This document shows, piece by piece, positions 24,488 to 41,634 of a stretch of DNA of 64,000 nt. This DNA is from Ottowia testudinis (GTDB taxonomy: Bacteria; Pseudomonadota; Gammaproteobacteria; Burkholderiales; Burkholderiaceae_C). Location: contig NZ_CP071796.1 in assembly GCF_017498525.1 (NCBI RefSeq), positions 4,098,041-4,162,040 of the forward strand. The letters are read 5' to 3'. The translations under genes were made by a program, and so were the position numbers. Below the pieces are notes generated by a model that saw only the letters and a list, made by a program, of their open reading frames with translations, ran no database searches and was not told the origin of the DNA. The number at the start of each line of letters is the position of its first letter. Position 1 is the first letter of the stretch.

Positions 24488-27400
24488 TCACGGCCGCTTG
24501 CGCGCCTCCAGCTGCTCGAACTCCGCCTCCAGCCGCTGCACCTGCTGGTGCAGTTGCGCGTCTTCGCCCACGCGGGTTTCGATGGCGCGCACCAGGGGCA
24601 GGATGAGCTGGCGGTAGGTGACGGACAGCGACAGCAGCGCATCCACCATGCTTTGCTCCTTGGCGCGGTCGCTGTGCTGGTGCAGGGTCTGGGTGCTGGC
24701 TTGCAGGGCGCGCAGGGCGGCGGCGCTGGCGTCCAGGCTGGCGCGCAAATCGGTTTGGGCCTGGGTGTTGCCGTCTTGCAGGTGGCGCGCCAGCTCGGCC
24801 AGGGCGGCGAGCGACGGGGCCAGTTGCGCCTCCAGCTGCGCCAGCCGCTCCTGGCCGCCGGCCTGCTGGCGTGCCAGCACGGCCAGCGGACTGGCCAGGC
24901 GCACGCCCAGTTGGTCGAAGGCAGCGCTGGCCTGGCTGACCAGGTCGGCGGGCTTGAGGGCGTCGACGCTACGCGCGATGTCGAGCAGGCCGCTGGTCAC
25001 GCGCAGGGCCGGGTCGTCTTCGGCGCCGCCGAGCTTTTTCAGCCGCTGGTAGTCGCCCTGAATCTGCTGCCAGCGCGCGGCCTCGTCGGCGCTGGGCTGG
25101 CCGATGAGGTGCGCGAGTTGCAGCAGGTTTTCTTCGGCGCCGGTGGTCAGCGTCTGCGCCTCGCCGCGGTAGTGGTCGCGCAGCAGCGCGTTCATTTCGG
25201 GCGCGGTCATCAGCGGCGTGATCTGCGGCGCCAGCCGCGCCATGTTGCGGTAGCTGCCTTGCAGCTTGAAGGGCGGCGCCTGGCGGTAGCGGTCGTCCTG
25301 CGCGGCCGACTGGATGTAGGCCAGGTTCACTTTCAATAGCACGTCGCGCGCTTGCATCAAGCGCTGGAGCAGGTTTTTGATCTCCTCCAGCTCCACCGTG
25401 CTGTAGGGGTGCGCGAGTTGCGCGGGATCGATCGGCTCGCCTTGCGCCAGGCGCACCAGCAGTTGCACGTCTTTCGCCTCGCGCGCGGCCAGCGGCAGGG
25501 TGACGGGGTTGGCCGTCAGGCTGTTTTCGATGTACGACAGCGCAAACACCGCCTCGCGGCCGGAGAGAACGTCGCCCAGGTTGTAGATGTCGGCGCGGTT
25601 GGCCAGCATGTCGGGGATGCGGAAGGCCTCGCCCGATTCGGTGTAGGGGTTGCCGGCCATCACCACGGCAAAGCGCTTGCCGCGCAGGTCCCAGGTGCGC
25701 GCTTGGCCGCCCCACACGCCTTCGATGCGGCGCGTGCCGTCGGCCAGGGCGATGAACTTCTGCAAAAACTCGGGGTGCGTGTGCTGGATGTCGTCCACAT
25801 ACAGCATCACGTTGCTGCCCATCGCTAGCCCTAAGTTGAGCTTTTCCAGCTCCAGCCGCGCGGCGCTGTTGGGCGCGGTGGCGGGGTCGATGCTGGTCAC
25901 CGCGTGGCCCAACGCCGGGCCGTTGATGCGCACGAACACCAGGCCCAGCCGGTCGGCGATGTATTCCATCAGCGTGGTCTTGCCGTAGCCGGGCGGCGAG
26001 ATGAGCAGCAGCAGGCCCGAGCGGTCGGCGCGCCCGGCCTCGCCCGCGGCGCCGATCTGCTTGGCCAGGTTGGCGCCGATCAGCGGCAAATACACCTCAT
26101 CGATCAGCCGGTTGCGCACAAAGCCGGCCATGGGCTTGGCCTGGAACTGCGCCAGCTGCAGGCGCTCGCGCTCGGCGGCCAGCAGGTCGTGGCGCAGCGC
26201 TTGCAGCGCCTGCATGCCGGGCAGCGCGTGGGCGCGGTGGTGGCGCACGCGGCGCCAGAAGTCGTTCAAGTCCAGCGCCAGCATGCCCTCGGCAATGCGC
26301 GGGTGCTCGCTGCGCAGGCCGTGCACCTGCGCTTGCAGCGGCGCGTTGACGCGCTGGCGCGGCGCGTCGACGGCCAGTTGCGTGGCGGCGTCGTCGGTGC
26401 TGGCGCGCCACAGGGCGGCGTCATCACCTTGCTGCGACAGCACAAAGGCCAGCACCCATTGGCGCGCCAGGCGCCAGCGCTCCAGCGGGTCGGCGGCGGC
26501 CATGTCGCGCTGCCAGGCGGCGCGCTGGCCGCCCTGGTCGAGCGCGCGCTCCAGCGCGGCGGCCAGGTCTTGGCCGGCGGCGCTGATGACCCATTGCATC
26601 GGCGTGCTGGCCAGTTGCTCGGGCGCGGCGCTTTGGCCTTCCAGCGCGGCCAGCTCGCGCACCAGGTAGGCGGCGGCTTCCTGGCACAGGGTGTCGCGGG
26701 CCTCGTCGATCGCTACGCTTTCAATAGCTGGTTGCGCAAGCCACTCGTGGACAAAGGCCGGATTGGATTCAAAAAACGCCGTCAGCAGCGTGGCGGCTTC
26801 GCCCTCCAGCACGCGGCGCGGCGCGTCTTGCGCGAACAGCTCGGCCATCTGGCGCGCAGCGCGGGAGCGGCGCGCCAGCGACTGGCGCTGCTCGTCGCGC
26901 AGGCCGTTGTGCCAAGCCAGCAACGCCAGCGCGCGGGCTGCGGGGCCGTACACCAGCAGGCCGGCGGCCGCCTGCAAGGGTGCCAGCGCACGCACGATGG
27001 CCAGCGCGTCGTCGTCGTGAATGCCGCGCTGGTAGCCCTCCTGATATCGCGCGGCGGCAAAGCGGCGCAGCGGCTCCAGCAGCGCGGGCGGGGGCGGCTC
27101 GCCGGCGGGCCATTCGGCCAGCTGCGCCAGCAGCGCGGGCCAGCCGGGTTCGGCGCCGGCTTGCAGCGCGTCGAGCCACTCGGCGGCCAGGTATTCGGCG
27201 CGCGCCAGTTGCGGCGTTTCGGACACCAGGGTTTGCTGCCAGTACGGGCGCAGCGCCTGAAGCCGCGCATCGCTCACGGGCGCCACGTAGTCGGTGCCGG
27301 TGATCTGCCAGGCCAGGCCCTCTTGCCCATTGTCCGCGTGGGCCACCAGCGTCAGGTCGATCGGCTGGCGGTTGACGGTGAAGGCGTGCGCGCCCAGTTG

Positions 27401-30088
27401 AATGTCGCCCGCGCCGCCGGCGCTGGACAGATCGCGCTGGTCGCGTACGCTGCGCACGGCCTGCTCTTGCGCGGCCTTCAGGCGCGTGGCCAGGTCGTCG
27501 GCGGCCACGGCCGCGCCCAGGCGGCGCAGCTCGGCAATCTGCTCGCGCAGCTTGGCCAGCATGGGGTCAGCGGCGAAGTAGCTGTGCACCTGCGCCAGCT
27601 CGGCCATGCCGGCCACGCGGCGCGGCACGCCGTCGAGAATGCGGCCGGCCGCGTCTGCCAGCGCCTTGGCGCGGCGCTGGCGCGCATCGAGCAGGCTCTG
27701 GCGGCGCGCGGCCAGTGCCTCGTACACCGATTCGCGCTTGGCGGCGATGTCAGCGAGGAAGTCTTCCTGCTCGGCAAAGCGGGCTTCGATTTCTTCCAGC
27801 TGCGCCAGCAGGCGGGTCAGCGCCTCGTCGCACTTTTCGGGCGTGTCGGCCAGCTCCAGCGCGTTTTCGACCGCCTGGCCGAACAGCTTGAACTGCGCGC
27901 CAAATTCGGCCCGCTGCTCGGCCGCGCCCAGACTGCGGCGGCGCTGGCGCGCATCGGCACGCAGGCGGTTGATGTCGGCATACAGCAGCGCAATGCGGTC
28001 GAGGATGGCGGTGCGCTGCACGGCGTTGCCGCCAGGCAGGCTGCCGAGTTGCTCGCTCAATAGATCGAGGCCGGCGGCCTGCTCGTCCAAGGCTTTGAGC
28101 AACTCGCCGATGTGGGTGGCGGTGGCGGCGCCGGGCAGCTCGGCGGCGATCTGGGTCAGGGCTTTTTGCTGGCCGTCGAACGCCTTGTCGTCGCTTAAAA
28201 AAACCAGCGCGCGCTCGCCCACGCGCTGCTGCTCGGCGGCCAGCTGCTGCGCCATGCGGTCCACGCGGGGCAAATCGGCATAGCGCAGTTCGCGCAGCGT
28301 GTGCAGCTCGCCCTGGCGCTGGCGCAGGTGGTTGAGCGCGTGCACAAAGTCGGCCGGCGCGCGCCACATCTGCGCCGCCAGCTCGCCCAGCAGTTCGCGC
28401 TGCTGGCTCTCGGCGCGGTCGAAGGCGCGCGCGGTGTCGGCGCGGATGGTTTCGACTTTCTCGAACTCGGCCAGCGTGCCCTGCGCGCCCTGCTCGATGG
28501 CGGCCAGGTCTTGCGCGGCGTCTTGCGCCTCGGGCGCGTCGAGCCAGAAGTAAGCGTCGCGCGCGCGCTGGCACTGGCGGATCAGGTCGTCGTACGCGGT
28601 GCGCGTGGCCGCCTGCTCGCGCAGCGCGCGGGCGATGCCCATCAGGTCCGACACGCCGCGCACCAGATCGGGGTTGCCCACCCGGCCAAAAAAGCCGTGG
28701 CCCGCCGGTTGCGCCGCCGCGTATTCGTCGTGCGCGAACGGCGTTTGCCACAGCTGCATGGGGTGCAGCCGCGTGGCCTCGCCCGCCGTGGCCTGGAACA
28801 CCAGCATGCGGCCGTCGGCAAAGCGCGCGTAGCCATCGGCCAGGATGGGCGCGGCCAGGCGCTTGTCGATCAGGTTGTAGGTGAACAGGGCGTACACGCC
28901 CGCATCCGGCGCGCCGCCGCCCGCGGCGCCCGCCGGCGCATCGAGCGCGCCGTAGAAGATGTAGACCACGTCTTCGCCGTTGGGCGAACGCAGCATGCGC
29001 ACATAGCGCAGCGCGGCGGCCAGATCGGGCGCCAGGTCAAAGCGCTTGTGCTCGCCCGATTGCAGGTAGTAGCCGCCCGGAAAAATAATGCCGTGGTCTT
29101 CAGGCAGCTGCACGCACGAGGCGCCGATGGCGTCGATGCGCGCCACCTCGCGCGTGCGCTCGTTGAACACCAGATAGCGCACCGCCGTCTCGCGGTAGGG
29201 CTTGATGCGCAGCAAAATCAATCGCCCCAGCCGCGCGTAGGCGATCTCGGCGTCGCCCAGGGCCTGGTTGGCGTCATCCACCGGCTCGCTGTAGATGCCA
29301 AGACCGGTTTCGGTGTTGTTCTCCACCTTCACCGTCAGGTCGCCGCCGGTGGTTTCGACGAACACGGTGTCGAGGATATTGATGTGCGGGTGGCGTCCGC
29401 CCACGTGCTGCTCGCGCGTGACGGGCGTCCAGTCGAAATCGTGGCTGGCCGGCGGGGCGATGTCGCGCTCGCCCCGGTTGTCGACGTAGGTGGGCTCGCC
29501 ATTGGCCTCGATGCGCCAGCGGAACACGCGGATGTCGCTGCGCTGCGCGCCGATCTGGAACGCGGCCAGCAGCCAGTCGTTGGTCACGCGCAGCATTTGC
29601 AGCGTGGCCTGCTTGTAATAGGTGGTCAGCTCGCTGAAATCGGCCTTGAAGCGTGCATCGTCGAGGAAGCTGCCCGCCAGCGGCACCGGCAGCAGTTCAT
29701 CGGCAGCGCCCGCCTCGGCCTGCGCCTCGCCCGCCTCGTGGTGCACCAAGTCGTACAGCGCGAACACGTCGCCCACGGTGGTTTCGCGCCGCAGCCCCAG
29801 AAACACGTTGAAGCCCAGCAGCACGCGGTCGGCGCCGATGCGCACGATGTCGCGCGGCACGCAGGCGTGCTCGGTGTGCGCGCGGGTGCGCAGCAGCAGG
29901 CGCTGCTCCTGCTGGCCAAACGCATCGAGCCGCGCCGCGTTCAGCGCCTGCGCCTTGGCCAGCAGCGCATCGCCCTGCGCTTGCAGGCGCTTGCGGAGCA
30001 ACTCGTAGCTGCTGCTGGCGGCGACGGCGGAGTCGATGGCCGACGCGTCGGCATCCGGGGCGGGTGTGACATCAATGGCGTCGGGCAT
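24488..30088 (-). CDS. Giant multidomain AAA+ ATPase (about 1866 aa), mostly helical and low-complexity, with one MoxR/AAA_5-like ATPase module near residue 1400
   Basis: Walker A LLLISPPGYGKTTL, Walker B VMLYVDDIQH, sensor-1 VVMAGNP and arginine motif DMLANRADIY. The rest is Ala/Leu/Gln/Arg/Glu-rich, consistent with long coiled coils. The six-frame ORF begins at TTG 30097; the first ATG is 30088. Confidence 0.85.
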   Translation of the reverse strand: MPDAIDVTPAPDADASAIDSAVAASSSYELLRKRLQAQGDALLAKAQALNAARLDAFGQQEQRLLLRTRAHTEHACVPRDIVRIGADRVLLGFNVFLGLRRETTVGDVFALYDLVHHEAGEAQAEAGAADELLPVPLAGSFLDDARFKADFSELTTYYKQATLQMLRVTNDWLLAAFQIGAQRSDIRVFRWRIEANGEPTYVDNRGERDIAPPASHDFDWTPVTREQHVGGRHPHINILDTVFVETTGGDLTVKVENNTETGLGIYSEPVDDANQALGDAEIAYARLGRLILLRIKPYRETAVRYLVFNERTREVARIDAIGASCVQLPEDHGIIFPGGYYLQSGEHKRFDLAPDLAAALRYVRMLRSPNGEDVVYIFYGALDAPAGAAGGGAPDAGVYALFTYNLIDKRLAAPILADGYARFADGRMLVFQATAGEATRLHPMQLWQTPFAHDEYAAAQPAGHGFFGRVGNPDLVRGVSDLMGIARALREQAATRTAYDDLIRQCQRARDAYFWLDAPEAQDAAQDLAAIEQGAQGTLAEFEKVETIRADTARAFDRAESQQRELLGELAAQMWRAPADFVHALNHLRQRQGELHTLRELRYADLPRVDRMAQQLAAEQQRVGERALVFLSDDKAFDGQQKALTQIAAELPGAATATHIGELLKALDEQAAGLDLLSEQLGSLPGGNAVQRTAILDRIALLYADINRLRADARQRRRSLGAAEQRAEFGAQFKLFGQAVENALELADTPEKCDEALTRLLAQLEEIEARFAEQEDFLADIAAKRESVYEALAARRQSLLDARQRRAKALADAAGRILDGVPRRVAGMAELAQVHSYFAADPMLAKLREQIAELRRLGAAVAADDLATRLKAAQEQAVRSVRDQRDLSSAGGAGDIQLGAHAFTVNRQPIDLTLVAHADNGQEGLAWQITGTDYVAPVSDARLQALRPYWQQTLVSETPQLARAEYLAAEWLDALQAGAEPGWPALLAQLAEWPAGEPPPPALLEPLRRFAAARYQEGYQRGIHDDDALAIVRALAPLQAAAGLLVYGPAARALALLAWHNGLRDEQRQSLARRSRAARQMAELFAQDAPRRVLEGEAATLLTAFFESNPAFVHEWLAQPAIESVAIDEARDTLCQEAAAYLVRELAALEGQSAAPEQLASTPMQWVISAAGQDLAAALERALDQGGQRAAWQRDMAAADPLERWRLARQWVLAFVLSQQGDDAALWRASTDDAATQLAVDAPRQRVNAPLQAQVHGLRSEHPRIAEGMLALDLNDFWRRVRHHRAHALPGMQALQALRHDLLAAERERLQLAQFQAKPMAGFVRNRLIDEVYLPLIGANLAKQIGAAGEAGRADRSGLLLLISPPGYGKTTLMEYIADRLGLVFVRINGPALGHAVTSIDPATAPNSAARLELEKLNLGLAMGSNVMLYVDDIQHTHPEFLQKFIALADGTRRIEGVWGGQARTWDLRGKRFAVVMAGNPYTESGEAFRIPDMLANRADIYNLGDVLSGREAVFALSYIENSLTANPVTLPLAAREAKDVQLLVRLAQGEPIDPAQLAHPYSTVELEEIKNLLQRLMQARDVLLKVNLAYIQSAAQDDRYRQAPPFKLQGSYRNMARLAPQITPLMTAPEMNALLRDHYRGEAQTLTTGAEENLLQLAHLIGQPSADEAARWQQIQGDYQRLKKLGGAEDDPALRVTSGLLDIARSVDALKPADLVSQASAAFDQLGVRLASPLAVLARQQAGGQERLAQLEAQLAPSLAALAELARHLQDGNTQAQTDLRASLDASAAALRALQASTQTLHQHSDRAKEQSMVDALLSLSVTYRQLILPLVRAIETRVGEDAQLHQQVQRLEAEFEQLEARKRP

Positions 30089-30105
30089 GATTTTCAATCA
30101 AATGG

Positions 30106-30154
30106 GCTGCTTGTCCTTGAGCAATCAGCGCAAGCAGCTATCAATAAAATAGTG
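30106..30154. repeat. Family A repeat (GCTGCTTG-n-CAAGCAGCTATCAATAAAATAGTG)
   Basis: Between the giant ATPase start and the D2 palindrome. Confidence 0.6.
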
Positions 30155-30164
30155 AACGAGCCCT

Positions 30165-30235: not shown

Positions 30236-30237
30236 GG

Positions 30238-30792: not shown

Positions 30793-30873
30793 GGGCTGTC
30801 TTTCATGGCGCGGTGTGCGGGCGAGGCGATAACGCATCCGGCCCAGCCCACCGCCTATTTTTGGGTCAAATCA

Positions 30874-30925
30874 AACGCTTGCGCTTGCCAGTCAAGCGCA
30901 AGCAGCTATCAAAAACAAAGTGCCC
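30874..30925. repeat. Family A repeat (CGCTTGCGCTTGCCAGTCAAGCGCAAGCAGCTATCAAAAACAAAGTG)
   Basis: Between the flotillin stop and the zinc-ribbon gene. Confidence 0.75.
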
Positions 30926-30937
30926 AGCAAGAATGCA

Positions 30938-33064
30938 TCACTTGCGCAAGCCCCCCAGCAACGTTCGCAACGCCTCTTTCTCCGCGTCACTGCCCTGCGT
31001 GGCGATCTTGGTCAGCAGCGCCGTGATACCCAGGCTTTGCAACTCGCCCGACGACTGCCCGGCCGCGCCAAGCACCTGCTTCAGGTCTTCGACCACGTCG
31101 CGCTCGCCGCTGATCTGGTCCTTGAAGGCGACTTGCAGGGTCTGGCTCTTGCCTATCGTGGCGTCGATGCCCTTGCCCACCGACAGCGCGCGCACGAAGC
31201 TGTCGAAATATTCGCCCTGGCCGCCGACGATGTCGATCTTGGCGTTTTGCAGCGCGGTGCCCAGCACCTCGGCCTGCTCGCGGGCAATGGCCTGCTGCGC
31301 TTCGATGCCTTTGAGCGTCTCCAGGTGCGCGCGCTCCAGGCGCATGCGGTATTCCTCGTGCTGCCTGGTTTCAGCACTCATGGCTTTCATGGCTTCGAAC
31401 TTCTCTTTCAAACCGCGCGCCTCGGCGTTGAACTTGACGTCGATGTTGTGCGCCTCGGCATCGCCCTGCTTGGCCAGCGCTTCGGCGTCGACGGTGCGCA
31501 CCAGGGCTTCGGCCTGGCCGATCTTCTCCTTGCCCTCGGCCTCGGCGCCCATCTTGGCGCGCAGGCCCACGGCTTCGGCCTGCGCCTGCGCGGCGATGAC
31601 CTGGGCCTCGGCGCGGCCGACTTTCTCCTTGCCGGTGGCTTCGGCCTCCATCTGCGCCAGCTTGGCGCCGGCATCGGCCATTTGCACCTTGGCCTGCGCC
31701 AGGCCCGGCGCTGCGCTGATGGCTTCGACGCCCTCGGCTTCGCGCTTCTTGGCTTCGGCCTCTTTCTCGGCCACTTTCAGGCGCGCCTCGGCCAACACCT
31801 GCTCTTCGGATGCCTTGTGGCGCGCGCGGCGCTCCTGCGCTTCGGCGGCCTTGACCTCGGCCACCATTTTTTCCTCGGCCGCCGCCTGCGCGGTGATGAC
31901 CACCGCCTTGCCGGTGCGGTCGGCCTCGGCCACGGCGCGCACTTCCTTGATGGCTTCTTCCTGCTCGGCCACGGTGCGCTCGACCACGATGCGCTCGCGG
32001 ATCACGTCGGCGATCGCCTTCTTCTGCATCTCGACGGCCTTGTCGGCGTCGATGCGTTGCAGCGTCACTTCTTTCTCGCGCGCCACCACCTCCAGGTCCT
32101 TGGCGCGCGTCACGCGCTCTTGCTCGATGACGACGGCGCGCTTGCGGTTGTTCTCGGCCACCTCTTTCTCGCGCAGCACGTTTTCGTTCTGCACCGCCAC
32201 GGCCTGCTCGGCCTGCAGGCGGGCGAGTTCAGAGCGGGTGCGCTCTTCAGCCTGGATCTTGGCGGTCTCGGCCTCTTCGCGCGCTACCACGGTGGCGACT
32301 TCGCGCTTTTGGCGCGCGGTGGCGTCGGCCTGCTGGCGCTCCAGTTCCAATAGCGCCTCTTGCGTTTCGACGTTTTTCTTCTTGATCTGCATCTCTTCAT
32401 TGCGGCGCAGCTCGTTGGTGACCACGTGCTCCACGGCGGTCAGCTCGGTGATCTTCTTGATGCCCTGCGCGTCGAGGATGTTGTTGGTGTCCAGCCGCTC
32501 CAGCGGGGTTTGCTCCAGGTAGTCGATGGCGGCGTCTTCCAGCACGTAGCCCGACAGGTCGTCGCCGATCTGCTCGATGATCTTGTCGCGAAAGCGGTCG
32601 CGCGCCTGGTACAGCTCAACGAAGTCGAGCGACTTGCCCACCGTCTTGAGCGCCTCGGAGAACTTGGCCGAGAACAGGTCTTCCAGAATCTCGTGGTTGG
32701 ACGCGCGCTCGCAGCCGATGCCCTGGGCCACGCGCAGCACGTCTTCGGCGGTCTGGTTCACGCGCACGAAGAACTTGACCTTGATGTCGGCGCGGATGTT
32801 GTCCTGGCAGATCAGGCCCTGGTTGCCCGAGCGGTCGATCTCGATCGTCTTGATCGAGATGTCCATCAGCTCGGCCTTGTGGATGATGGGGTAGACCATG
32901 CGCCCGGTGAAGGTCACCTCGGGCTCGGCGCGCAGCGTGTTGACGATGAGCGCGTTGCCCTGCTCCACCTTGCGGTAAAACTTGGCGAACAGCGCGAACG
33001 CGCCCAGGATGAAGAGCACGAGCACGCCAACGGCGATCAGGATGAGCATCAGGGATTCGGACAT
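30938..33064 (-). CDS. Flotillin-family SPFH/band-7 protein (YqiK/FloT-like), 708 aa
   Basis: N-terminal transmembrane segment and SPFH domain, then a very long Glu/Ala/Lys/Arg/Gln-rich flotillin-type coiled coil (EA repeats). Confidence 0.9.
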   Translation of the reverse strand: MSESLMLILIAVGVLVLFILGAFALFAKFYRKVEQGNALIVNTLRAEPEVTFTGRMVYPIIHKAELMDISIKTIEIDRSGNQGLICQDNIRADIKVKFFVRVNQTAEDVLRVAQGIGCERASNHEILEDLFSAKFSEALKTVGKSLDFVELYQARDRFRDKIIEQIGDDLSGYVLEDAAIDYLEQTPLERLDTNNILDAQGIKKITELTAVEHVVTNELRRNEEMQIKKKNVETQEALLELERQQADATARQKREVATVVAREEAETAKIQAEERTRSELARLQAEQAVAVQNENVLREKEVAENNRKRAVVIEQERVTRAKDLEVVAREKEVTLQRIDADKAVEMQKKAIADVIRERIVVERTVAEQEEAIKEVRAVAEADRTGKAVVITAQAAAEEKMVAEVKAAEAQERRARHKASEEQVLAEARLKVAEKEAEAKKREAEGVEAISAAPGLAQAKVQMADAGAKLAQMEAEATGKEKVGRAEAQVIAAQAQAEAVGLRAKMGAEAEGKEKIGQAEALVRTVDAEALAKQGDAEAHNIDVKFNAEARGLKEKFEAMKAMSAETRQHEEYRMRLERAHLETLKGIEAQQAIAREQAEVLGTALQNAKIDIVGGQGEYFDSFVRALSVGKGIDATIGKSQTLQVAFKDQISGERDVVEDLKQVLGAAGQSSGELQSLGITALLTKIATQGSDAEKEALRTLLGGLRK

Positions 33065-33320: not shown

Positions 33321-33324
33321 GAAT

Positions 33325-33975: not shown

Positions 33976-34007
33976 GGTTCTGGTTCCCTCTCGATGAATG
34001 ATGATGC

Positions 34008-34102
34008 TTTTATTTTTATAGCTGCTGGCGCTTTCCAGTCTTCGTTTTCAAATCATTTTCCTCTGAAACTGGCTCCCGACAAGCGCAAGCAGCTATGTTT
34101 TT
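34008..34102. repeat. Family A repeat with enlarged loop (ATAGCTGCTGGCGCTTTCCAGTC ...45 bp... GACAAGCGCAAGCAGCTATG)
   Basis: The two arms match the family A half-sites but are separated by an AT-rich 45-bp insert. The right arm overlaps the stop of the 34093-34449 ORF. Confidence 0.55.
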
Positions 34103-35632: not shown

Positions 35633-35737
35633 GTCGAATCCCTCCATCGTTGGTGGCCGCACCGGGTGATGCGGTGTCGCCATATTATGTCCAACGACAT
35701 GATATGTCAAACGATTTTGTTCGGCGTCTGGTGGCAA

Positions 35738-35898
35738 AAACAGCCGGACGCGAAGGACGCGAAAAAGACAAAAATCTTCTGGCCTATGGGGTCGTTGGCC
35801 GCGCCATCACGAACGATGTGTCACGAGCCGAACAAGAATTTTTTGAATTCTTTCGCGTCTTTCGCGCAATCTTCGCGCCCTTCGCGTAAGGGCTGTTT
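35738..35898. repeat. Family C MITE-like element, copy C2 (arms built from GACGCGAAGG / CGCGAA units)
   Basis: Left arm AAACAGCCGGACGCGAAGGACGCGAAAAAGAC; right arm is the reverse complement of AAACAGCCCTTACGCGAAGGGCGCGAAGATTGCGCGAAAGACGCGAAAG. Its end includes the RND stop codon. Confidence 0.7.
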
Positions 35899-38800
35899 AT
35901 GTCGCGCGCTCCCCGCCACCCCGCCAGCGCCGCTTCACCCACTCCGCCACGTCGTCCACATACGTGAACACCGCCGGAATCACCAACAGGCTCAAGAAAG
36001 TGGAGGTGATCAGGCCACCAATCACCGCCACCGCCATCGGCGAGCGAAAGCTGGGGTCTGAGCCGCCCCAGCCAATCGCAATCGGCAGCATGCCGGCGCC
36101 CATGGCCAGCGTGGTCATGATGATGGGGCGCGCGCGTTTGTGGCAGGCGTCCATCAACGCTTCAAACCGATTCAGCCCATGCTCGCGCCGCGCCAGGATG
36201 GCGTATTCGACCAGCAGGATCGAGTTCTTGGTCGCCACACCCATCAGCATGATCAGGCCGATCAGCGAGGGCATCGACAGCGACTTGCCCGCCAGCAGCA
36301 GCCCCACGAAGGCGCCGCCCAGCGACAGTGGCAGCGCCGCCAGAATCGTGATGGGGTGCAGCACGTGGTGAAACAGCAGCACCAGCACCAGGTAGATGCA
36401 CAGGATGCCCGTCAGCATGGCCAGACCAAAGCCCAGAAACAGCTCGCCCATCACCTCGGCATCGCCCACCTCGACCACGCGCACACCGGCGGGCAGCGTC
36501 TTGACCGAAGGCAGCTCCTTCACCTTGGCCGCCACGTCGCCCAGCGGCTGACCCGACAGTTCCACTTCCAGATTCACGTTGCGCGCGCGGTCGTAGCGGT
36601 TGATGACCGCGGGGCCGCCCGAGAGGCTGAGGGCCGCCACCTGCGACAGCGGCACCGGGCCCTTGCTGCCGGGCACGTGCAGGCGCGCCAGCACATCGAG
36701 GTTCTTGCGCGCGTCGGCGTCGAGCTTGACCACGATGGGGATCTGCCGCTGCGCCAGGTTGAGCTTGGGCAACTGCGCGTCGTAATCGCCCAGCGTGGCC
36801 ACGCGCAGCGTGTCGGCAATGGCGCTGCTGGTCACGCCCAGGTCGGCGGCGCGGGCAAAGTCGGGTTTGACGGCGATCTCGGGCCGCACCAGGCTGGCCG
36901 TGCTGGTCACGCTGCCCAAGCCGGGCACGGTGCGCAAATCGCTTTCGACCGCGCGGGCGGCCTGCGTCAGCGCGTGCGGGTCGTCGCCTTGCAGCACCAG
37001 AATGTATTTCTCGCCCGAGCCGCCCAGGCCGATCTTGCTGCGCACGCCGGGCAGGCCCGCGATGAGCCGGCGCAGCTCGGCTTCCACCGCCTGCTTCACC
37101 GGCCGCTCGCCGCGCGCGGCCAGCTGAATGGTGAGCGTGGCCTTGCGCACATCGGCGGCGCCGGCCGAGAACGGATCGCCCCCGGCCGAGCCGCCACCGA
37201 TGGTGGTGTACACGCTCTTGATGTATTGGTTTTTGAGCAATTGCGCCCGCGCTGCCTCGGCCGTGCGCTCAGTTTCTTGTAGCGTCGATCCGGGCGGCAG
37301 CTCCAGGTACACCTGGGTTTGGGAGTTGTCGTCGGGCGTGATGAAGGCGGTGGGCAGCAGCGGCACCAGCGCCAGCGAGCCGATGAAAAAAGCCAGCGCC
37401 CCCAGCAGCGTGAGCAGCCGGTGCCGCACGCACCACGCCGCCCAGCGACCGTACACGCGCAGCCAGCGCGGGTCTTCGTGGCCGCCCGCCAGCGGCTTCA
37501 TCAGGTACGCCGCCATCATGGGCGTCAGCATGCGCGCCACGACCAGAGAAGCAAACACCGCCAGCGACGCCGTCCAGCCGAACTGCTTGAAGAACTTGCC
37601 GACCACGCCGCTCATGAAGGCGGTTGGCAGAAACACCGCGATCAGCGTGAAGGTGGTGGCGATCACGGCCAGGCCGATCTCGTCGGCCGCTTCCATGGCC
37701 GCCTGGTAGGGCGATTTGCCCATGCGCAGGTGGCGCACGATGTTCTCTACCTCGACAATGGCGTCGTCCACCAGGATGCCGATCACCAGCGACAGCGCCA
37801 GCAGCGACACGATGTTGATCGAGAAGCCGAAGAAGTACATGCCGATCAGCGCCGGCAGCACCGACATCGGCAGCGCCACCGCCGACACGAACGTGGCGCG
37901 CCCGTTGCGCAGAAACAGCCACACCACCAGCACCGCCAGCACGGCGCCTTCGCCCAGCATCTTGAGCGAGGCGTGGTATTCCTCCTCGACCGGGGTGACG
38001 AAGTCGAACGCCTCGGTGAACTGCAAGTCGGGGTGCGCCGCGCGCAGCTCGGCCAGCGCGGCGCGCACGCCGGCGCCCACCTCGACCTCGCTGGCGCCGC
38101 GGCTGCGCGCCACCTCGAAGCCCACCACTTTCTGGCCATTGAGCAGCGCGGCGGCGCGCGGCTCGGCCACGCTGTCGGCCACGCTGGCCACCTGATCCAG
38201 CCGCACGCTGCGCCCGTCTTGCAGCGCAATCGGCAGCGCGCGCAGTTCATCGGCCGTGCCCACGGTGGCCAGCGTGCGCACCGGCTGCTCGCCCGCGCCC
38301 AGGTCGACGCGGCCGCCGGCGCTTTCCATCTGCACCTGGCGCAGCTGGCGCGACACGTCGGCGGCGGTCACACCCAGGCCTTGCAGGCGCACCGGATCGA
38401 GCGCCACCTGCACCTGCCGATCGGCCCCGCCCACGCGGTTGACCGCGCCCACGCCCGGAATCGCCAGCAGCCGCTTGGCGATGTCGTTGTCGACGAACCA
38501 CGACAGGTCGGCATCGCTCATGCGCCGGGACGACAGCGCATAGGCCAGCATGGGCTGCGCCGCCAGATCGAGCTTGCTGACGATGGGCTCGCGCACATCG
38601 CCCGGCAAATCGCCCCGCACGCGCGAGACGGCCGAGCGCACGTCGTCCAGCGCCTCCTGCAAGTCTTTTTCGAGCCGGAACTCGACCATGATCGACACCG
38701 AGCCATCGACGATGCTGGTGCTGATGTGCTTGACGCCCTGCACCGTGGCCAGGCTGTTCTCGATCTTGCGCGCGACCTCGTTCTCCAGCTGGCCCGGCGT

Positions 38801-38962
38801 GGCGCCCGGCAGCGCCGCCACCACGTTGACCATGGGCATGTCGATGTCGGGAAAGTTCTGCACCTTCATCTGATGGAAGCTGAACAGCCCCCCCAGCGTG
38901 AGCAGCAGAAACAGCATCAGCGTCGGTACCGGGTTGCGGATCGACCAGGCGGAAAAGTTCAT
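35897..38962 (-). CDS. RND efflux transporter permease (AcrB/AcrD/AcrF superfamily), 1021 aa
   Basis: 12-transmembrane RND topology with large periplasmic loops. N-terminus MNFSAWSIRNPVPTLMLFLLLTLGG. Confidence 0.95.
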   Translation of the reverse strand: MNFSAWSIRNPVPTLMLFLLLTLGGLFSFHQMKVQNFPDIDMPMVNVVAALPGATPGQLENEVARKIENSLATVQGVKHISTSIVDGSVSIMVEFRLEKDLQEALDDVRSAVSRVRGDLPGDVREPIVSKLDLAAQPMLAYALSSRRMSDADLSWFVDNDIAKRLLAIPGVGAVNRVGGADRQVQVALDPVRLQGLGVTAADVSRQLRQVQMESAGGRVDLGAGEQPVRTLATVGTADELRALPIALQDGRSVRLDQVASVADSVAEPRAAALLNGQKVVGFEVARSRGASEVEVGAGVRAALAELRAAHPDLQFTEAFDFVTPVEEEYHASLKMLGEGAVLAVLVVWLFLRNGRATFVSAVALPMSVLPALIGMYFFGFSINIVSLLALSLVIGILVDDAIVEVENIVRHLRMGKSPYQAAMEAADEIGLAVIATTFTLIAVFLPTAFMSGVVGKFFKQFGWTASLAVFASLVVARMLTPMMAAYLMKPLAGGHEDPRWLRVYGRWAAWCVRHRLLTLLGALAFFIGSLALVPLLPTAFITPDDNSQTQVYLELPPGSTLQETERTAEAARAQLLKNQYIKSVYTTIGGGSAGGDPFSAGAADVRKATLTIQLAARGERPVKQAVEAELRRLIAGLPGVRSKIGLGGSGEKYILVLQGDDPHALTQAARAVESDLRTVPGLGSVTSTASLVRPEIAVKPDFARAADLGVTSSAIADTLRVATLGDYDAQLPKLNLAQRQIPIVVKLDADARKNLDVLARLHVPGSKGPVPLSQVAALSLSGGPAVINRYDRARNVNLEVELSGQPLGDVAAKVKELPSVKTLPAGVRVVEVGDAEVMGELFLGFGLAMLTGILCIYLVLVLLFHHVLHPITILAALPLSLGGAFVGLLLAGKSLSMPSLIGLIMLMGVATKNSILLVEYAILARREHGLNRFEALMDACHKRARPIIMTTLAMGAGMLPIAIGWGGSDPSFRSPMAVAVIGGLITSTFLSLLVIPAVFTYVDDVAEWVKRRWRGGGERAT

Positions 38963-38976
38963 GGCGGCGGCGGGAT

Positions 38977-39016
38977 TGAATAGCTATTTATTTAATAGCT
39001 GTTTGCGCTTGATTGG
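38977..39016. repeat. Family A-like AT/GC palindrome (AATAGCTATTTATTTAATAGCTGTTTGCGCTTGATTGG), overlapping the 3' end of the periplasmic adaptor gene
   Basis: It encodes the last residues (..ANQAQTAIK*) of the 38988-40142 product and reaches the RND start region. Confidence 0.5.
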
Positions 39017-40142
39017 CGGGCGCAGCAGGCGCTTTTGGCACTGAATCGGCCACCACCTGCACCAGATCGCCGTCGTTCAGGAAGGCGCCGCCCTGCACCA
39101 CCACGCGGGCGCCCGCGTCCAGCCCGCCCGTGATTTCAACCCGCCCGCCGGCCAGCCGCCCGGTCTGCACGCGCAGCAGCTGCACGCGGTCGCCCTCGCC
39201 CAGCTTCAGCACGTGGGCAAAGCCGTCGCGCATGACGATGGCGTCTTGCGGCACCGTCAGCGCCTCGCCCTGGCCGATGGCGATGCGCCCGCGCGCGAAC
39301 ATGCCGGCGCGCGCCGGGCCGCCGCGCGGCAGGTCAACGTAGACGATGGCAAAGCGCGTCTTCGGGTCCACCGTGGGCGCCAGCTGGCGCACGGTGCCGG
39401 TGAGCGGCGGCGCGGCGGCATCGGGCGCGCCGGGCAAGTCGATCCGCACCGCCTGGCCGGCTCGGATGGCGGGCAGGTCTTCAGCCATCACCTCGCCGCG
39501 CCATTCCAGCCGGCCCTGGCGCACCATGCGGAACAGCTCGGTGCCGGGCGCCACCACCTGGCCCACGGTGGCCATGCGGGCGGAAATGACGCCGGCATCG
39601 GGCGCCAGCACCTGCGTGTTGCGCACGCGCAGCGCCTGGCTGCCGACCACGGCGCGCGCCGCCTCGACCCGGGCGCGGGCGGTTTTCTCGGCCGTCACAT
39701 ATTGGTTGATCTGCTGCTGGCTCAAAGCGCCGCTGGATTGCACGGCGCGCGCGCGTTCGGCGTTGCCGCGCGCATCGGCGTGGGCGGCTTCGGCCTCGGC
39801 CAGGCTGGCGCGCGCCTGCGCCTGGTCTTGCTGCACGGGCGCGGCGTCGAAGGTGGCCAGCACCTGGCCTTTTCTCACCACGTCGCCCACGTTCACGCGC
39901 ACATCGGCCAGCCGCAGGCCGCCCACGTCGGCGCCCACGCTGGCCTCTTGCCAGGCGGCGATGTTGCCATTGGCGGTGATTTCGCGCGTCAGGTTCTGGC
40001 GCTCAGGGTGCGCCACGGTCACGGTGAGCGCGGGGCGCGGCGCGCTGGCGGCCGCTTGCGGGCCATTGGCGGCGCCGTCTTTCTGGCCGCAGGCGGCAAG
40101 CGCCAGGGCGGCGGCCAAAAGCATGGTGGGGATGGATTTCAT
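38988..40142 (-). CDS. RND efflux periplasmic adaptor subunit (MFP/HlyD family) lipoprotein
   Basis: Lipobox LALAAC. Biotinyl-lipoyl-like and beta-barrel regions. Confidence 0.9.
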   Translation of the reverse strand: MKSIPTMLLAAALALAACGQKDGAANGPQAAASAPRPALTVTVAHPERQNLTREITANGNIAAWQEASVGADVGGLRLADVRVNVGDVVRKGQVLATFDAAPVQQDQAQARASLAEAEAAHADARGNAERARAVQSSGALSQQQINQYVTAEKTARARVEAARAVVGSQALRVRNTQVLAPDAGVISARMATVGQVVAPGTELFRMVRQGRLEWRGEVMAEDLPAIRAGQAVRIDLPGAPDAAAPPLTGTVRQLAPTVDPKTRFAIVYVDLPRGGPARAGMFARGRIAIGQGEALTVPQDAIVMRDGFAHVLKLGEGDRVQLLRVQTGRLAGGRVEITGGLDAGARVVVQGGAFLNDGDLVQVVADSVPKAPAAPANQAQTAIK

Positions 40143-40200
40143 CGGTGATTCCTGGGGCGCTGCTCGGGCGCGCTGATCGCTGTCGCGAAGCCGTGGTGAT

Positions 40201-41634
40201 TCATGGCGCCGGCGCCTGCCAGCCGCCGCCCGCCGCCTTGTACAGTGCCACGCCCGCGGCCTGCTGCTCGTGCAGCAGCTGCGCCAGCGCGGTCTCGGCG
40301 CCCAGCAGATTGCGGCGCGCTTCTTCCAGCTGCGGCAGGTTGGCCATGCCCTGGCGGTACAGCGCCTCGGTGGCGGCGAACTGCTGGCGGTAGCCGGCCA
40401 CGGCGGCGCGGGCGTCGGCCTCGCGCCCGCGCGCGGCGGCGCCTTGCGTGAGGGCGGTTTCCACCTCTTGCACGGCCTGGCGCACCTTGCCCTGGTAGTT
40501 GGCCACGGCTTCGTCGTAGCGCGCCCGCGCCGCCGCCTGGCCCGCCGCGATGCGGCCGCCGTCGAAGATCGGCAGGCTGAGTTGCAGCGGCCCGAACTGC
40601 CAGGTGGAAAAGTCGCGCGTGCCGCCGCCGGCGCGCAGTTGCAGCGCGCCGATGTTGCCGGCCAGGCTCAAGCCCGGCCAGCGCGCGGCATCGGCCGACG
40701 CCAGCTCGGCCCGCGCGGCCAGCACCTCGCGCTCGGCGGCCCACACGTCGGGGCGCTGGCGCAGGGTGTCGGCGGGCAGAGTTGCTATTGAAAATAGAGC
40801 TGATTGCGATGAATTGGCGCGGGCAAGCGCCATTTTTTGCTCGATATCCGGCTCGGGCAGCCCGGTCAACGCCACCAGCGCCTTGCGCTGCGCATCGCAC
40901 GTGGCCTGCTGCTGCGTGGTGCGCGCGCGGCCGTCGGCGGCGCTGGCGTCGGCCAGTGCGGCGGTGGCGGGCGCGGTGAAGCCGGCGTCGCGGCTGATGC
41001 GCGCCAGGCGCGCGGTCTCGCCGCGCGAAGCGGCGTCTTGGCGCGCGGTCTCCAGCAGCGACTGGCACAGCCGCAGGCCGTGGTAGCTGCTGGCCACGTC
41101 GCCCACCAGCGCCACGCGCGCCAGGTGCGCCAGCGCCTGGGCGCCCTCGGCGCGCGCCGTGGCGGCGCCGACCAGCGCGCGCTGGCGGCCGAACAGATCA
41201 ATTTCCCAGCTCGCCTGCACGCCGGCTTGCAGCGTGGTGGCGATCGGCGGATCGCTGCCCGGCGGCGTGCTGCCCACGCTGCCCGCGTTGCCGCGCGTGG
41301 CGCTGGCGGCGGCGCCCAGCTGCGGCAGCAGGCCGGCGCGCTGGCTGCCCACCTGCGCGCGCGCCTGCGCCACGCGCGCTTCGGCCGCGGCCAGGCTCGG
41401 GCTGCCTTGCAAGGCGGCGTCGATCAATTCGGTGAGCGTGGCGTCGCCGCCCGCGCGCCACCAGCCGGCCAGCGCAACGGCGCTGCCGGCATGCGGCAGC
41501 GGGGCGATCCAGGCGGGCGGCGCGATGTGTTCCAGCGGCGGCGCGGCGGGCGGCGGCGTGGCGCAGCCGGCCAAGGCGAGCAGCGTCGCGGCGCCGAACA
41601 GCGCGCGGCAGCGGAGAGCAAAAAACGATCTCAT
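40201..41634 (-). CDS. Efflux outer-membrane factor lipoprotein (OprM/NodT family)
   Basis: Lipobox LLALAGC. Two TolC-like repeats. Gene order OMF-MFP-RND. Confidence 0.9.
   Translation of the reverse strand: MRSFFALRCRALFGAATLLALAGCATPPPAAPPLEHIAPPAWIAPLPHAGSAVALAGWWRAGGDATLTELIDAALQGSPSLAAAEARVAQARAQVGSQRAGLLPQLGAAASATRGNAGSVGSTPPGSDPPIATTLQAGVQASWEIDLFGRQRALVGAATARAEGAQALAHLARVALVGDVASSYHGLRLCQSLLETARQDAASRGETARLARISRDAGFTAPATAALADASAADGRARTTQQQATCDAQRKALVALTGLPEPDIEQKMALARANSSQSALFSIATLPADTLRQRPDVWAAEREVLAARAELASADAARWPGLSLAGNIGALQLRAGGGTRDFSTWQFGPLQLSLPIFDGGRIAAGQAAARARYDEAVANYQGKVRQAVQEVETALTQGAAARGREADARAAVAGYRQQFAATEALYRQGMANLPQLEEARRNLLGAETALAQLLHEQQAAGVALYKAAGGGWQAPAP
40786..40840. 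repeat. Possible intragenic, in-frame family A-like copy inside the OMF gene
   Basis: A low-GC patch GGCGCTTGCCCGCGCCAATTCATCGCAATCAGCTCTATTTTCAATAGCAAC encodes ..MALARANSSQSALFSIAT.. in frame. It resembles GCGCTTG-n-CAAGCGC...ATAGCAATCA. Confidence 0.35.

What the first reader, a model, noticed from the sequence alone, without database searches (positions are those of the whole stretch)
25335..40840. Apparently in-frame intragenic copies of the family A repeat inside protein-coding genes (RPE-like behaviour)
Low-GC patches resembling family A occur inside ORFs that stay open across them. Each of the following encodes extra, low-complexity residues in frame:
- 40786-40840 in the OprM/NodT-family gene: GGCGCTTGCCCGCGCCAATTCATCGCAATCAGCTCTATTTTCAATAGCAAC encodes ..MALARANSSQSALFSIAT..
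- 25335-25385 (TTCAATAGCACGTCGCGCGCTTGCATCAAGCGCTGGAGCAGG encodes ..NLLQRLMQARDVLLKVN..) and 26712-26745 (CAATAGCTGGTTGCGCAAGCC encodes ..WLAQPAIE..) in the giant ATPase.
- 38977-39016 supplies the last about 10 codons and the stop of the MFP gene.

In-frame insertion of palindromic elements into genes is known for Rickettsia RPEs but is unusual in Betaproteobacteria. Some of these matches could be chance, so I treat this as a hypothesis.
Basis: inference. Interest (0 to 1): 0.55.

Follow-up and report, generated by a model that had tools for sequence, protein, structure and literature searches.

The report
Ancient repeat copies embedded in genes

Summary
The window is from Ottowia testudinis. 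"Family A" is a ~65-73-nt repeat (…TTGCTAT-N7-ATAGCTGCT-GCGC-N11-GCGC…TTT…) with about 20 copies in 64 kb. I built a profile without the claimed sites. It scores 38981-39041 at 41.8 bits, 26707-26774 at 32.0 bits and 40781-40844 at 25.9 bits; the best of 60 shuffles was 11.1 bits. 25335-25385 scores 6.2 bits, which is chance, and it encodes a conserved native segment. Two more in-frame copies exist: 44346-44413 (tail of a second MFP) and 63376-63429 (class IV aminotransferase).

The RPE-like reading fails its own test for the mid-gene copies. Orthologues without the signature have homologous residues of equal or greater length in the OMF, ATPase and aminotransferase. The signature is carried by rare A/T-ending codons over native, poorly conserved segments. 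In the OMF these make up 62% of element codons versus 11% elsewhere (p~1e-124). The aminotransferase helix has the same residues but GC-rich codons in some congeners.

The same sites carry the signature in Ottowia, Polaromonas and Variovorax. Copies group by locus, and the signature has eroded repeatedly. Only the MFP-end copies look like plausible insertions, and there the element supplies the tail and the stop codon. How the copies arose and what maintains them are inferred, not shown.

The parts
40781..40844 (+). Family A copy inside the OMF (OprM/NodT-family) gene, read by the minus-strand gene in the 'm' orientation. It encodes about D-I-E-Q-K-M-A-L-A-R-A-N-S-S-Q-S-A-L-F-S-I-A-T, in the loop between the two OEP halves.
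   Evidence: 25.9 bits with a held-out HMM versus at most 11.1 in shuffles. No indel against orthologues or against OprJ/OprM. Rare A/T-ending codons are conserved across genera.
38981..39041 (+). Family A copy at the MFP/RND junction. It supplies the last 17 codons (…SVPKAPAAPANQAQTAIK) and the TAA stop (38988-38990) of the MFP gene.
   Evidence: 41.8 bits. The same position is occupied in about 20 orthologous loci from several genera. Some orthologues have only 5 nt between the MFP anchor and the RND start.
26707..26774 (+). Family A copy ('CGTGGAC' variant) inside the DUF3686/AAA giant ATPase gene. It encodes about A-F-F-E-S-N-P-A-F-V-H-E-W-L-A-Q-P-A-I-E-S-V-A in a hypervariable linker.
   Evidence: 32.0 bits. 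Also present in orthologues L082 (30 bits) and L084 (27 bits), degraded in L081 and L083, and absent in L085 and L086, which are longer there.
25335..25385 (.). Not a family A copy. This is a chance resemblance within a conserved ATPase segment.
   Evidence: 6.2 bits, E=0.43, against 0.88 such hits per shuffled window. The residues are conserved without indels in all orthologues examined.
44346..44413 (-). It encodes …WEPNKASAPANQASAAPKNGAS…, uses the same frame and belongs to the same subfamily as the 38981 copy.
   Evidence: 41.9 bits; translation. The tail lies beyond the conserved MFP core and is variable in homologues.
63376..63429 (+). It overlies the native helix Q-I-A-L-D-L-I-A-A-Y-A-R and the following loop.
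   Evidence: 35.1 bits. PDB alignment. Congeners encode the same residues with GC-rich codons. The signature is present in 41 of 82 orthologues down to about 62% identity.
40201..41712 (-). Host gene: outer-membrane factor (two OEP repeats). The likely start is near 41673.
   Evidence: Pfam PF02321, two stretches. 100% identical to the O. testudinis protein P0001.
38988..40142 (-). Host gene: membrane-fusion protein (HlyD_D23/HlyD_3), followed by the RND pump gene at 35897-38962 (-).
   Evidence: Pfam.
24488..30097 (-). Host gene: 1866-aa DUF3686 + DUF7902 + AAA ATPase.
   Evidence: Pfam. 100% identical to P0121.
30858..30926 (-). Reference intergenic family A copy (the best-scoring one). Other clear intergenic copies: 220-287, 1213-1276, 5011-5078, 9017-9084, 14127-14196, 20617-20684, 24409-24472, 30091-30158, 41769-41830, 50323-50383, 51952-52015, 52131-52193.
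   Evidence: Scores of 44.6-60.1 bits. Positions relative to genes. 30904-30876 is the strongest terminator-like site in the scan.

Best explanation
Family A is an old, abundant, REP/ERIC-like dispersed repeat of Comamonadaceae. It is about 65-73 nt long and has an AT-rich palindrome (GCTAT-N7-ATAGC), an invariant AGCTG, a GC-rich palindrome (GCGC…GCGC) and a T-run. Most copies sit just after genes, usually with the hairpin-then-T-run orientation facing the upstream gene.

Shown:
- A minority of copies lie in frame inside genes.
- They sit only in tolerant protein segments: an inter-repeat loop, an interdomain linker, a helix plus surface loop, and disordered C-terminal tails.
- The mid-gene copies are not block insertions. 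The repeat signature is written over pre-existing codons, largely through rare synonymous A/T-ending codons.
- The copies were established before the genera diverged. They have been kept at the nucleotide level in many lineages and eroded to GC-rich codons in others.

Inferred:
- Each embedded copy arose once, by recombination of an element copy into a partly similar, tolerant coding tract. This was replacement or short-patch conversion rather than pure insertion. At MFP ends it may have been a true insertion into the intercistronic junction, with the upstream frame reading into the element until its AT-rich part gives a stop.
- The nucleotide sequence is then held by a force acting on DNA or RNA, not on the protein. 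This could be the element's own cis function, such as a protein-binding site or a hairpin. It could instead be recurrent conversion from the many genomic copies.
- Where that force lapses, GC-biased substitution and small deletions erase the signature and leave only the peptide.
For: Real copies: held-out HMM scores of 25.9-41.9 bits, against at most 11.1 bits in 60 shuffles.

No insertion:
- The OMF segment has the same length in orthologues down to 36% identity and is present in OprJ and OprM.
- ATPase orthologues without the signature are 8-11 codons longer and share NP-L--EWL.
- The aminotransferase helix aligns with PDB 4m0j. L088 and L090 encode the identical residues QIALDLIAAYA(R) with GC-rich codons and have no HMM hit.

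Nucleotide-level conservation:
- In 18 signature-bearing OMF genes, 62% of the 23 element codons end in A/T versus 11% elsewhere (Fisher p about 1e-124). Of the 14 columns in the gene where A/T third positions are conserved, 12 lie in the element. Non-bearing genes show 11% versus 13%.
- The same rare codons (TTA, ATA, AAA, CAA, GCT, TCA) recur in Ottowia, Polaromonas and Variovorax.

Age and erosion:
- Bearing OMF genes fall in at least 4 Comamonadaceae sub-clades and in none outside the family.
- 41 of 82 aminotransferase orthologues are AT-rich at the site, with at least 13 state changes and an AT-rich root by parsimony.
- Copies group by locus across genera in the gapless 41-copy alignment.
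- Junction tails without an HMM hit keep the same length and end in A(A/S)(S/T/I)K*.
- Intergenic copies are also positionally conserved, upstream of the ATPase and downstream of DUF493.

Tolerant sites: the MFP2 tail lies beyond the conserved core.

Orientation: 4 of 5 in-gene copies face so that the terminator-like orientation is antisense to the mRNA.
Against: - The origin step (replacement or conversion) is inferred only from the absence of an element-sized indel and the retention of native residues. I observed no donor-recipient event.
- The trees are quick neighbour-joining gene trees, so the polarity (AT-rich state ancestral) is only a parsimony result. Recombination between species could mimic multiple losses.
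- There is no covariation support for a conserved hairpin: 175 of 500 shuffles reach the observed score, and RNAalifold finds no consensus. A structural RNA role is therefore unsupported.
- No binding protein or function is known.
- Grouping by locus could partly reflect protein constraints at each site.
- Only 64 kb of the host genome was available, so the genic/intergenic ratio and any associated transposase are unknown.
- Chance similarity as a seed for conversion is a back-of-envelope argument, not a test.
Confidence: 0.55

Rival explanations
1. RPE-like behaviour. Family A is a mobile palindromic element that inserts into genes in frame and adds a block of new residues that the protein tolerates.
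For: - The frames stay open across real copies.
- At the MFP/RND junction, some orthologues have only 5 nt between the MFP anchor and the RND start, while element-bearing loci have about 73-89 nt. That fits a roughly 70-nt insertion.
- Signature-bearing aminotransferases are 5-12 codons longer than the plainest forms.
- The frame the genes use is the one most often free of stops in intergenic copies (9 of 20).
Against: - No element-length indel at any mid-gene site. The OMF length is equal, the ATPase is shorter, and the aminotransferase differs by 5-12 codons rather than 22.
- Native residues persist under the element.
- No target-site duplication (5.00 versus 4.71 ± 0.27) and only a weak terminal-inverted-repeat signal.
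- The copies are old and positionally conserved rather than strain-variable.
Confidence: 0.12
2. In-situ accumulation, as with DNA uptake sequences or another genome-wide sequence motif. A drive (biased uptake or conversion) or selection for a protein-binding motif pushes partly similar sequences, including codons, towards the family A consensus by point substitutions, without any insertion.
For: - No indels, synonymous overlay, a preference for poorly conserved residues and particular frames, a shared motif across a bacterial family, and frequent placement as hairpins after genes. All of these are reported for uptake sequences in Haemophilus and Neisseria (PMC2817400) and are seen here.
- The core ATAGCTGC occurs 14 times against about 1 expected. 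Some occurrences are in half-copies (11919, 22678, 34018, 34089).
Against: - The unit is 65-73 nt with several modules, far longer than known uptake sequences.
- The core is found only within full or partial copies, not scattered alone.
- Approaching a 65-nt consensus by single steps is hard to drive.
- No competence specificity is known for this family (my own knowledge; not tested).
- Parsimony puts the AT-rich state at the root with mostly losses.
Confidence: 0.15
3. The in-operon copies are selected cis-regulatory RNA or DNA elements of the efflux operon, for example processing, stability or antisense-termination sites that set OMF:MFP:RND ratios. Their resemblance to the dispersed family reflects a shared function.
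For: - Three copies lie in one OMF-MFP-RND transcription unit (41769-41830, 40781-40844, 38981-39041).
- Both paralogous MFP-RND junctions carry the same subfamily.
- The junction and OMF-site copies are conserved across genera.
- The plus-strand (antisense) side of the OMF copy scores as terminator-like (40815-40832).
Against: - Embedded copies also occur in an unrelated aminotransferase and in an ATPase linker.
- There is no covariation for the stem.
- Only a few copies pass a simple terminator scan.
- There are no expression data.
Confidence: 0.15
4. Coincidence or a compositional artefact. Local AT-rich or rare-codon patches in GC-rich genes happen to resemble an AT-rich repeat profile.
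For: This is true for 25335-25385, which scores 6.2 bits against 0.88 hits per shuffle. Shuffles of the whole window do not model local AT-rich patches.
Against: - The matches are full length (HMM positions 3-70) and include GC-rich invariant positions (AGCTG, GCGC…GCGC) and subfamily-specific strings. Examples are CGTGGACAA-GGCC, shared with 41769-41830, and TTGATTGGCGGGCGC, shared by the two MFP copies.
- The repeat finder found the copies independently.
- No other explanation is offered for why such patches exist.
Confidence: 0.03

Closest known systems
Rickettsia palindromic elements (RPEs)
   Same: Both are palindromic repeats found inside protein-coding genes with the reading frame kept open, at positions the protein tolerates (as summarised in PMC10969869).
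   Different: RPEs are about 150-bp insertions that add a conserved peptide and leave a clean gap in orthologues. Here there is no element-sized gap at the mid-gene sites, native residues persist, the peptides differ between sites, and the copies are shared across genera.
REP/BIME and ERIC-type dispersed intergenic repeats of Gammaproteobacteria
   Same: Both are short, abundant, imperfect palindromes, mostly just downstream of genes or between genes of an operon, in either orientation. Some are terminator-like, some overlap stop codons, and they are often positionally conserved between related species (my own knowledge).
   Different: REPs are by definition extragenic. Family A has full-length copies in frame in the middle of genes that are maintained across genera. 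Any link to a RAYT transposase could not be examined.
DNA uptake sequences (USS/DUS) inside coding regions
   Same: Both are repeats superimposed on codons without insertion, in particular frames and at poorly conserved residues, shared by a bacterial family, and also forming hairpins after genes (PMC2817400).
   Different: USS/DUS cores are 9-12 nt (about 30 nt with flanks). Family A is 65-73 nt and modular, and no uptake bias is known or tested.
Beta-proteobacterial repeat element (BRE; Hot et al. 2011, PMC3110155)
   Same: BRE is a dispersed repeat reported in Bordetella and in Comamonadaceae (Polaromonas, Delftia, Acidovorax, Rhodoferax), with 'some of the repeats located entirely within coding sequences'.
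   Different: BRE is about 90 bp, 69% GC and often tandem. Its published sequences (…GGCCGCGGGCCGTCCAAGGCAAAAAAGCCCCCTTGGGGGGCAGC…) have no AGCTGCT core and do not resemble family A.
MITEs that fuse in frame with host ORFs (Coxiella QMITE, intragenic ERIC, Correia elements)
   Same: Both are small non-autonomous repeats that can supply C-terminal codons and stop codons, or lie within ORFs (PMC10969869).
   Different: I found no terminal inverted repeats or target-site duplications for family A. The copies are ancient and syntenic rather than strain-variable.

Membership tests
RPE-like in-frame insertion | A repeat copy lies inside an ORF and the frame stays open | tested here: met
   Five copies score 25.9-41.9 bits in open frames of genes with intact Pfam domains.
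RPE-like in-frame insertion | Orthologues lacking the element show a clean, element-length gap at the site | tested here: not met
   OMF: equal length. ATPase: non-bearing orthologues are 8-11 codons longer. Aminotransferase: a difference of 5-12 codons, not 22, with the helix native.
RPE-like in-frame insertion | The element encodes a conserved peptide shared by its intragenic copies | tested here: not met
   The two MFP copies share 'APANQA', but the OMF, ATPase and aminotransferase peptides are unrelated to it and to each other.
MITE | Terminal inverted repeats and flanking target-site duplications | tested here: not met
   Longest shared direct k-mer in a copy's own flanks is 5.00 versus 4.71 ± 0.27 in mismatched flanks. 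For inverted ends it is 4.93 versus 4.45 ± 0.24. Element boundaries are fuzzy, so short duplications could be missed.
MITE | A parent IS or transposase with matching ends in the same genome | not testable with these tools
   Only the 64-kb window of the host genome was available.
REP/BIME-like dispersed palindromic repeat | Short imperfect palindrome, high copy number, mainly extragenic and close to gene ends | tested here: met
   About 20 copies in 64 kb. 71% of cells pair in the two palindromes versus 24-49% when the partners are slid. Most copies abut stop codons or lie between genes.
REP/BIME-like dispersed palindromic repeat | Association with a RAYT (REP-associated tyrosine transposase) | not testable with these tools
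   No whole-genome access.
DNA uptake sequence-like motif | A short core is strongly over-represented, including in coding DNA, without insertions | tested here: inconclusive
   ATAGCTGC occurs 14 times against 0.96 expected, but only within full or partial family A copies. Overlay without an indel is seen.
DNA uptake sequence-like motif | Preferential uptake of motif-bearing DNA by competent cells | not testable with these tools
   This needs an experiment.
BRE (Hot et al. 2011) | Sequence similarity to the published ~90-bp GC-rich BRE consensus | tested here: not met
   The BRE supplement sequences lack AGCTGCT and have a different architecture.
Any Rfam RNA family | A match at the family's gathering score | tested here: not met
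   Only a tRNA at 41990-42062 was found in the window.
Structured RNA element | Base pairs maintained by compensatory changes | tested here: not met
   Covariation score 0.133 versus 0.129 in shuffles, with 175 of 500 shuffles reaching it. RNAalifold finds no consensus.
Intrinsic terminator | A GC-rich hairpin directly followed by a T-run | tested here: inconclusive
   A few copies are flagged (30904-30876, 41788-41768, and 40815-40832 on the antisense strand), but most are not.

The most novel reading that the evidence does not exclude
Family A is a functional cis-element, either a protein-binding site or an RNA/DNA hairpin module. Full-length copies have been kept inside coding sequences as dual-coding segments since before the Comamonadaceae genera diverged, by selection on synonymous sites or by a sequence-directed conversion process that writes the repeat onto codons. 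That would be a mode of repeat-gene coexistence distinct from RPE-type insertion and much larger in scale than uptake-sequence overlay.
Probability: 0.3. Interest if true: 0.8.

Novelty: new variant of a known kind. Interest (0 to 1): 0.58.

Why it matters
Dispersed bacterial repeats are normally treated as extragenic. The classic exception (RPEs) works by inserting new peptide segments. Here a 65-73-nt repeat shares its sequence with ordinary codons of unrelated genes, at the same positions in several genera, against a strong GC3 bias.

If the signature is held by selection, these are long dual-coding segments, and they point to an unknown, family-wide cis function that could be tested by recoding. 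If it is held by conversion from genomic copies, it shows repeats reshaping codon choice and loop sequences in proteins.

There is also a practical consequence. Such patches can be mistaken for recent insertions, horizontal transfer or annotation errors. The two MFP-RND junction copies may also affect efflux-pump operon expression.

Tried and rejected
- Rfam at gathering thresholds found only a tRNA.
- RNAalifold on 41 copies gave no consensus structure. Explicit pair counting showed real palindromes but no covariation above shuffles, so I dropped the structured-RNA claim. RNAalifold on codon-aligned OMF-site copies also failed because the stems shift register.
- The sigma-70 promoter scan gave no consistent promoter in the copies.
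- The test for terminal inverted repeats and target-site duplications was negative or weak.
- BRE as the identity of family A was rejected on sequence.
- Literature searches for a description of this repeat in Comamonadaceae found nothing. This is not proof that none exists.
- The argument from a shared reading frame is only partly explained by stop-codon avoidance, and the sample is too small to say more.
- I looked for the second MFP-RND operon in the 80 genome loci, but it was not covered. I used an exhaustive protein search instead, which showed only that the tail is variable.
- My first Pfam call and first terminator scan failed on coordinates and were rerun.

Full report
**What the repeat is.** The finding refers to a "family A" repeat without defining it, so I first recovered it. 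The repeat finder shows one dominant family, and oriented copies align on a common pattern. Forty-one copies from this window and from other genera later aligned without gaps over 73 nt. The consensus is nnnGnTTGCTATTnATTTnATAGCTGCTTGCGCnTGnTnGnCnnGCGCTAGAGnCnnnTTTnnTnCnAAAnC. Positions C9, AGCT (22-25), GC (32-33) and G45 are invariant. The pattern has an AT-rich palindrome (GCTAT-N7-ATAGC) and a GC-rich palindrome (GCGC…GCGC). The window is 100% identical in three proteins to Ottowia testudinis, a member of the Comamonadaceae.

**Checking the observation.**
- I built an nhmmer profile from 15 copies that excluded all four claimed sites and scanned the window.
- Sixty dinucleotide-preserving shuffles never exceeded 11.1 bits, and gave 0.88 hits per window at 6.2 bits or more.
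- Three claimed sites are full-length members: 38981-39041 (41.8 bits), 26707-26774 (32.0 bits) and 40781-40844 (25.9 bits).
- The copy at 26707-26774 is 79% identical over 48 nt to the intergenic copy at 41764-41835. It shares that copy's variant string CGTGGACAA-GGCC.
- The fourth site, 25335-25385, scores 6.2 bits (E=0.43), which is chance.
One is 44346-44413 (41.9 bits), in the C-terminal tail of a second MFP just upstream of a second RND gene. The other is 63376-63429 (35.1 bits), in the middle of a class IV aminotransferase gene.
- The host genes are intact: an OMF with two OEP repeats, two HlyD-type MFPs, two RND pumps, a 1866-aa DUF3686/DUF7902/AAA ATPase, and Aminotran_4.

**Indel test, OMF.** An alignment with 28 orthologues of 51-88% identity shows no gap at the repeat. 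tblastn on 80 genome loci extends this to 36% identity (Methylotenera), and the 46-residue segment has the same length almost everywhere. Solved OprJ and OprM structures also have residues across the segment. So the segment is ancestral and the residues are not "extra".

Yet one set of orthologues keeps the same rare A/T-ending codons: GAT TTA AAG CAA AAA CTG GCT … GCG CAA GCA GCT ATT TTT TCA ATA GCA. This set comprises Ottowia, Polaromonas, one Variovorax and one Ramlibacter. These orthologues mostly give family A hits of 15-40 bits at that spot; three of the 17, including the Ramlibacter gene, keep only the end codons and fall below the HMM threshold. Other orthologues use ordinary GC-rich codons there.
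- In the 18 bearing genes, 62% of the 23 element codons end in A/T versus 11% in the rest of the gene (Fisher p about 1e-124).
- Of the 14 columns in the whole gene with conserved A/T third positions, 12 lie in the element.
- Non-bearing genes show 11% versus 13%.
- On a neighbour-joining tree built without the site, bearing genes fall in at least four Comamonadaceae sub-clades interleaved with non-bearing ones. None falls outside the family.

**Indel test, ATPase.** The site at 25335-25385 encodes IKNLLQRLMQ(A/V)RDVLLKVNLAYI, which is conserved without indels in all orthologues examined. The resemblance there is coincidental.

The site at 26707-26774 lies in a hypervariable linker. I fetched DNA for six orthologues and compared it.
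- The element is present in L082 (30 bits) and L084 (27 bits).
- It is degraded in L081 and L083.
- It is absent in L085 and L086, which are 8-11 codons longer there.
- Both bearing and non-bearing versions keep F-x-(D/E)-x-N-P-x-(L/F)-x-x-E-W-L.

Again there is no clean insertion.

**Indel test, aminotransferase.** The 5' half of the element overlies a native helix: QIALDLIAAYA aligns with ALVARLVDANA of PDB 4m0j. Among congeners, L088 and L090 encode the identical residues with GC-rich codons (ATC GCG CTG GAC CTG ATC GCC GCC TAC) and give no hit. The window and L087 use ATC GCT CTT GAT TTA/CTG ATA GCT GCC/GCT TAC and score 35 and 29 bits.

A metagenome scan gave 80 more orthologues of 59-90% identity.
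- 41 of 82 have the AT-rich state, with scores up to 30.7 bits at 65% identity.
- They share the pattern ATT GCT … AAA TTA ATA GCT GCT TAC GCA … TCC ACG GGC GCT.
- The segment is 20-21 residues in the plainest forms, as in 4m0j, and 25-37 in bearing forms. The increase is never the 22 codons of a whole element.
- On a tree built without the site, parsimony needs at least 13 state changes and places the AT-rich state at the root.

**MFP ends.**
- The copy at 38981-39041 supplies the last 17 codons and the stop of MFP1.
- Across the 80 loci, about 20 from Ottowia, Acidovorax, Polaromonas, Variovorax, Giesbergeria and Rhodoferax have a family A copy at the same junction.
- The distance from a conserved MFP anchor to the RND start is 5 nt in five loci. 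It is about 73-89 nt in most element-bearing loci. That is compatible with a true insertion into the junction.
- Many loci without an HMM hit have a tail of the same length ending in A(A/S)(S/T/I)K*. These look like eroded copies.
- MFP2's copy lies in a tail beyond the conserved core, and that tail varies from about 5 to 60 residues in homologues. No indel test is possible there.
- The two junction copies belong to one subfamily (TTGATTGGCGGGCGC) and are read in the same frame, giving APANQA.

**Nature of the family.**
- In the 41-copy alignment, copies group by locus (OMF type, junction type) across genera rather than by genome. This favours vertical descent under locus-specific constraint over genome-wide homogenisation, although protein constraints contribute.
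- Intergenic copies are also positionally conserved: upstream of the ATPase in L082, and downstream of DUF493 in L087, L088 and L090.
- The palindromes are real (71% of cells paired versus 24-49% when slid), but covariation does not exceed shuffles (175 of 500). RNAalifold finds nothing. I therefore do not claim a structured RNA.
- A few copies pass a simple terminator scan in the hairpin-then-T-run orientation.
- Copies after genes mostly face that way, while 4 of 5 in-gene copies face the other way relative to the mRNA.
- I found no target-site duplications or clear terminal inverted repeats.
- The core ATAGCTGC occurs 14 times against about 1 expected, always within full or partial copies.

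**Comparison with what is known.**
According to a recent review they are about 150-bp in-frame insertions that add a conserved peptide (PMC10969869). The defining clean gap is tested here and not met for the mid-gene copies.
- The published Beta-proteobacterial repeat element occurs in Comamonadaceae, sometimes inside genes. It is a different, GC-rich ~90-bp sequence (PMC3110155).
- The closest behavioural analogue for overlay without insertion is uptake sequences in coding regions (PMC2817400). Those are far shorter, and no uptake bias is known here.
- In architecture and placement, family A most resembles REP/BIME or ERIC-type repeats. Those are extragenic by definition.
- I found no description of family A itself.

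**Verdict.** The copies are in frame and real, but the mid-gene ones are not RPE-like insertions.

- Shown: the repeat signature is superimposed on ancestral, tolerant protein segments. It is carried mainly by rare synonymous codons and shared across genera, and it has been lost repeatedly.
- Inferred: each copy arose by a one-off recombination or replacement. It is then maintained by a DNA- or RNA-level force, either the element's cis function or conversion from other copies.

The main rivals are a drive like that of uptake sequences, and operon-specific regulatory elements. Neither is excluded.

Noticed in passing
window 294-379, 18670-18760, 20455-20536, 41872-41965: A second dispersed repeat, GC-rich and about 75-90 nt (for example GATCAGAAGGCCGCGGAGCAGGCCATCCGGGAACGCCGTGGCCGGGGTTCCCCCGGCCAC…), with copies 86-91% identical in both orientations. 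It often lies next to family A copies, and once next to a tRNA gene. Its size and GC content recall the published BRE, but the BRE sequences in the paper's supplement are not obviously the same.
   Followed up: partly
window 33264-33318, 35842-35896, 42225-42279, 52078-52132; inverted partners at 33132-33177, 42114-42160, 52030-52071: A third repeat family built from TTTGCG(T/C)C-like heptamers (TTTTGCGTCnTTTGCGTnATCTTTGCG…). It often forms inverted pairs in intergenic regions next to operon starts.
   Followed up: no
window 34004-34038 (+) and 34076-34098 (-); also 11907-11936, 22678-22701, 53491-53539: Half or partial family A copies (the left module GCTAT…ATAGCTGC alone), including an inverted pair upstream of the 33325-33975 gene. 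The element appears to be modular.
   Followed up: partly
window 30938-33064 (-), especially 31500-31930: A 708-aa ORF with no Pfam match next to the giant DUF3686 ATPase. It contains internal ~99-nt imperfect tandem repeats (GCCTCGGC-rich, Ala/Glu-type) and strong AT skew. The same 708-aa neighbour is conserved beside the ATPase in L081, L083 and L086.
   Followed up: no
L020, L023, L028, L033, L034, L037 (Polaromonas loci), around position 11100 or its equivalent: In these orthologues the MFP frame reads through the whole junction element, and its stop overlaps the RND start codon (stop = RND start + 1). The element is therefore fully coding there, and the two genes may be translationally coupled.
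   Followed up: no
window 38962-38990: The RND gene starts 25 nt after the MFP stop, and the spacer (ATAGCTATTCAATCCCGCCGCCGCC) has no obvious Shine-Dalgarno sequence. The spacer is partly element sequence.
   Followed up: no
L081 4750-4830 (orthologue P0122 of the ATPase): The closest ATPase orthologue (87% identity) has a same-length but very different peptide at the element site (NRLLLLELLGHIAPETEAIN versus NPAFVHEWLAQPAIESVAID). It is still AT-rich but scores only 6 bits, so the embedded copy has diverged rapidly between close relatives.
   Followed up: partly
window 41990-42062 (-): A tRNA gene lies between the two efflux operons, flanked by a GC-rich repeat copy and a family A copy.
   Followed up: no
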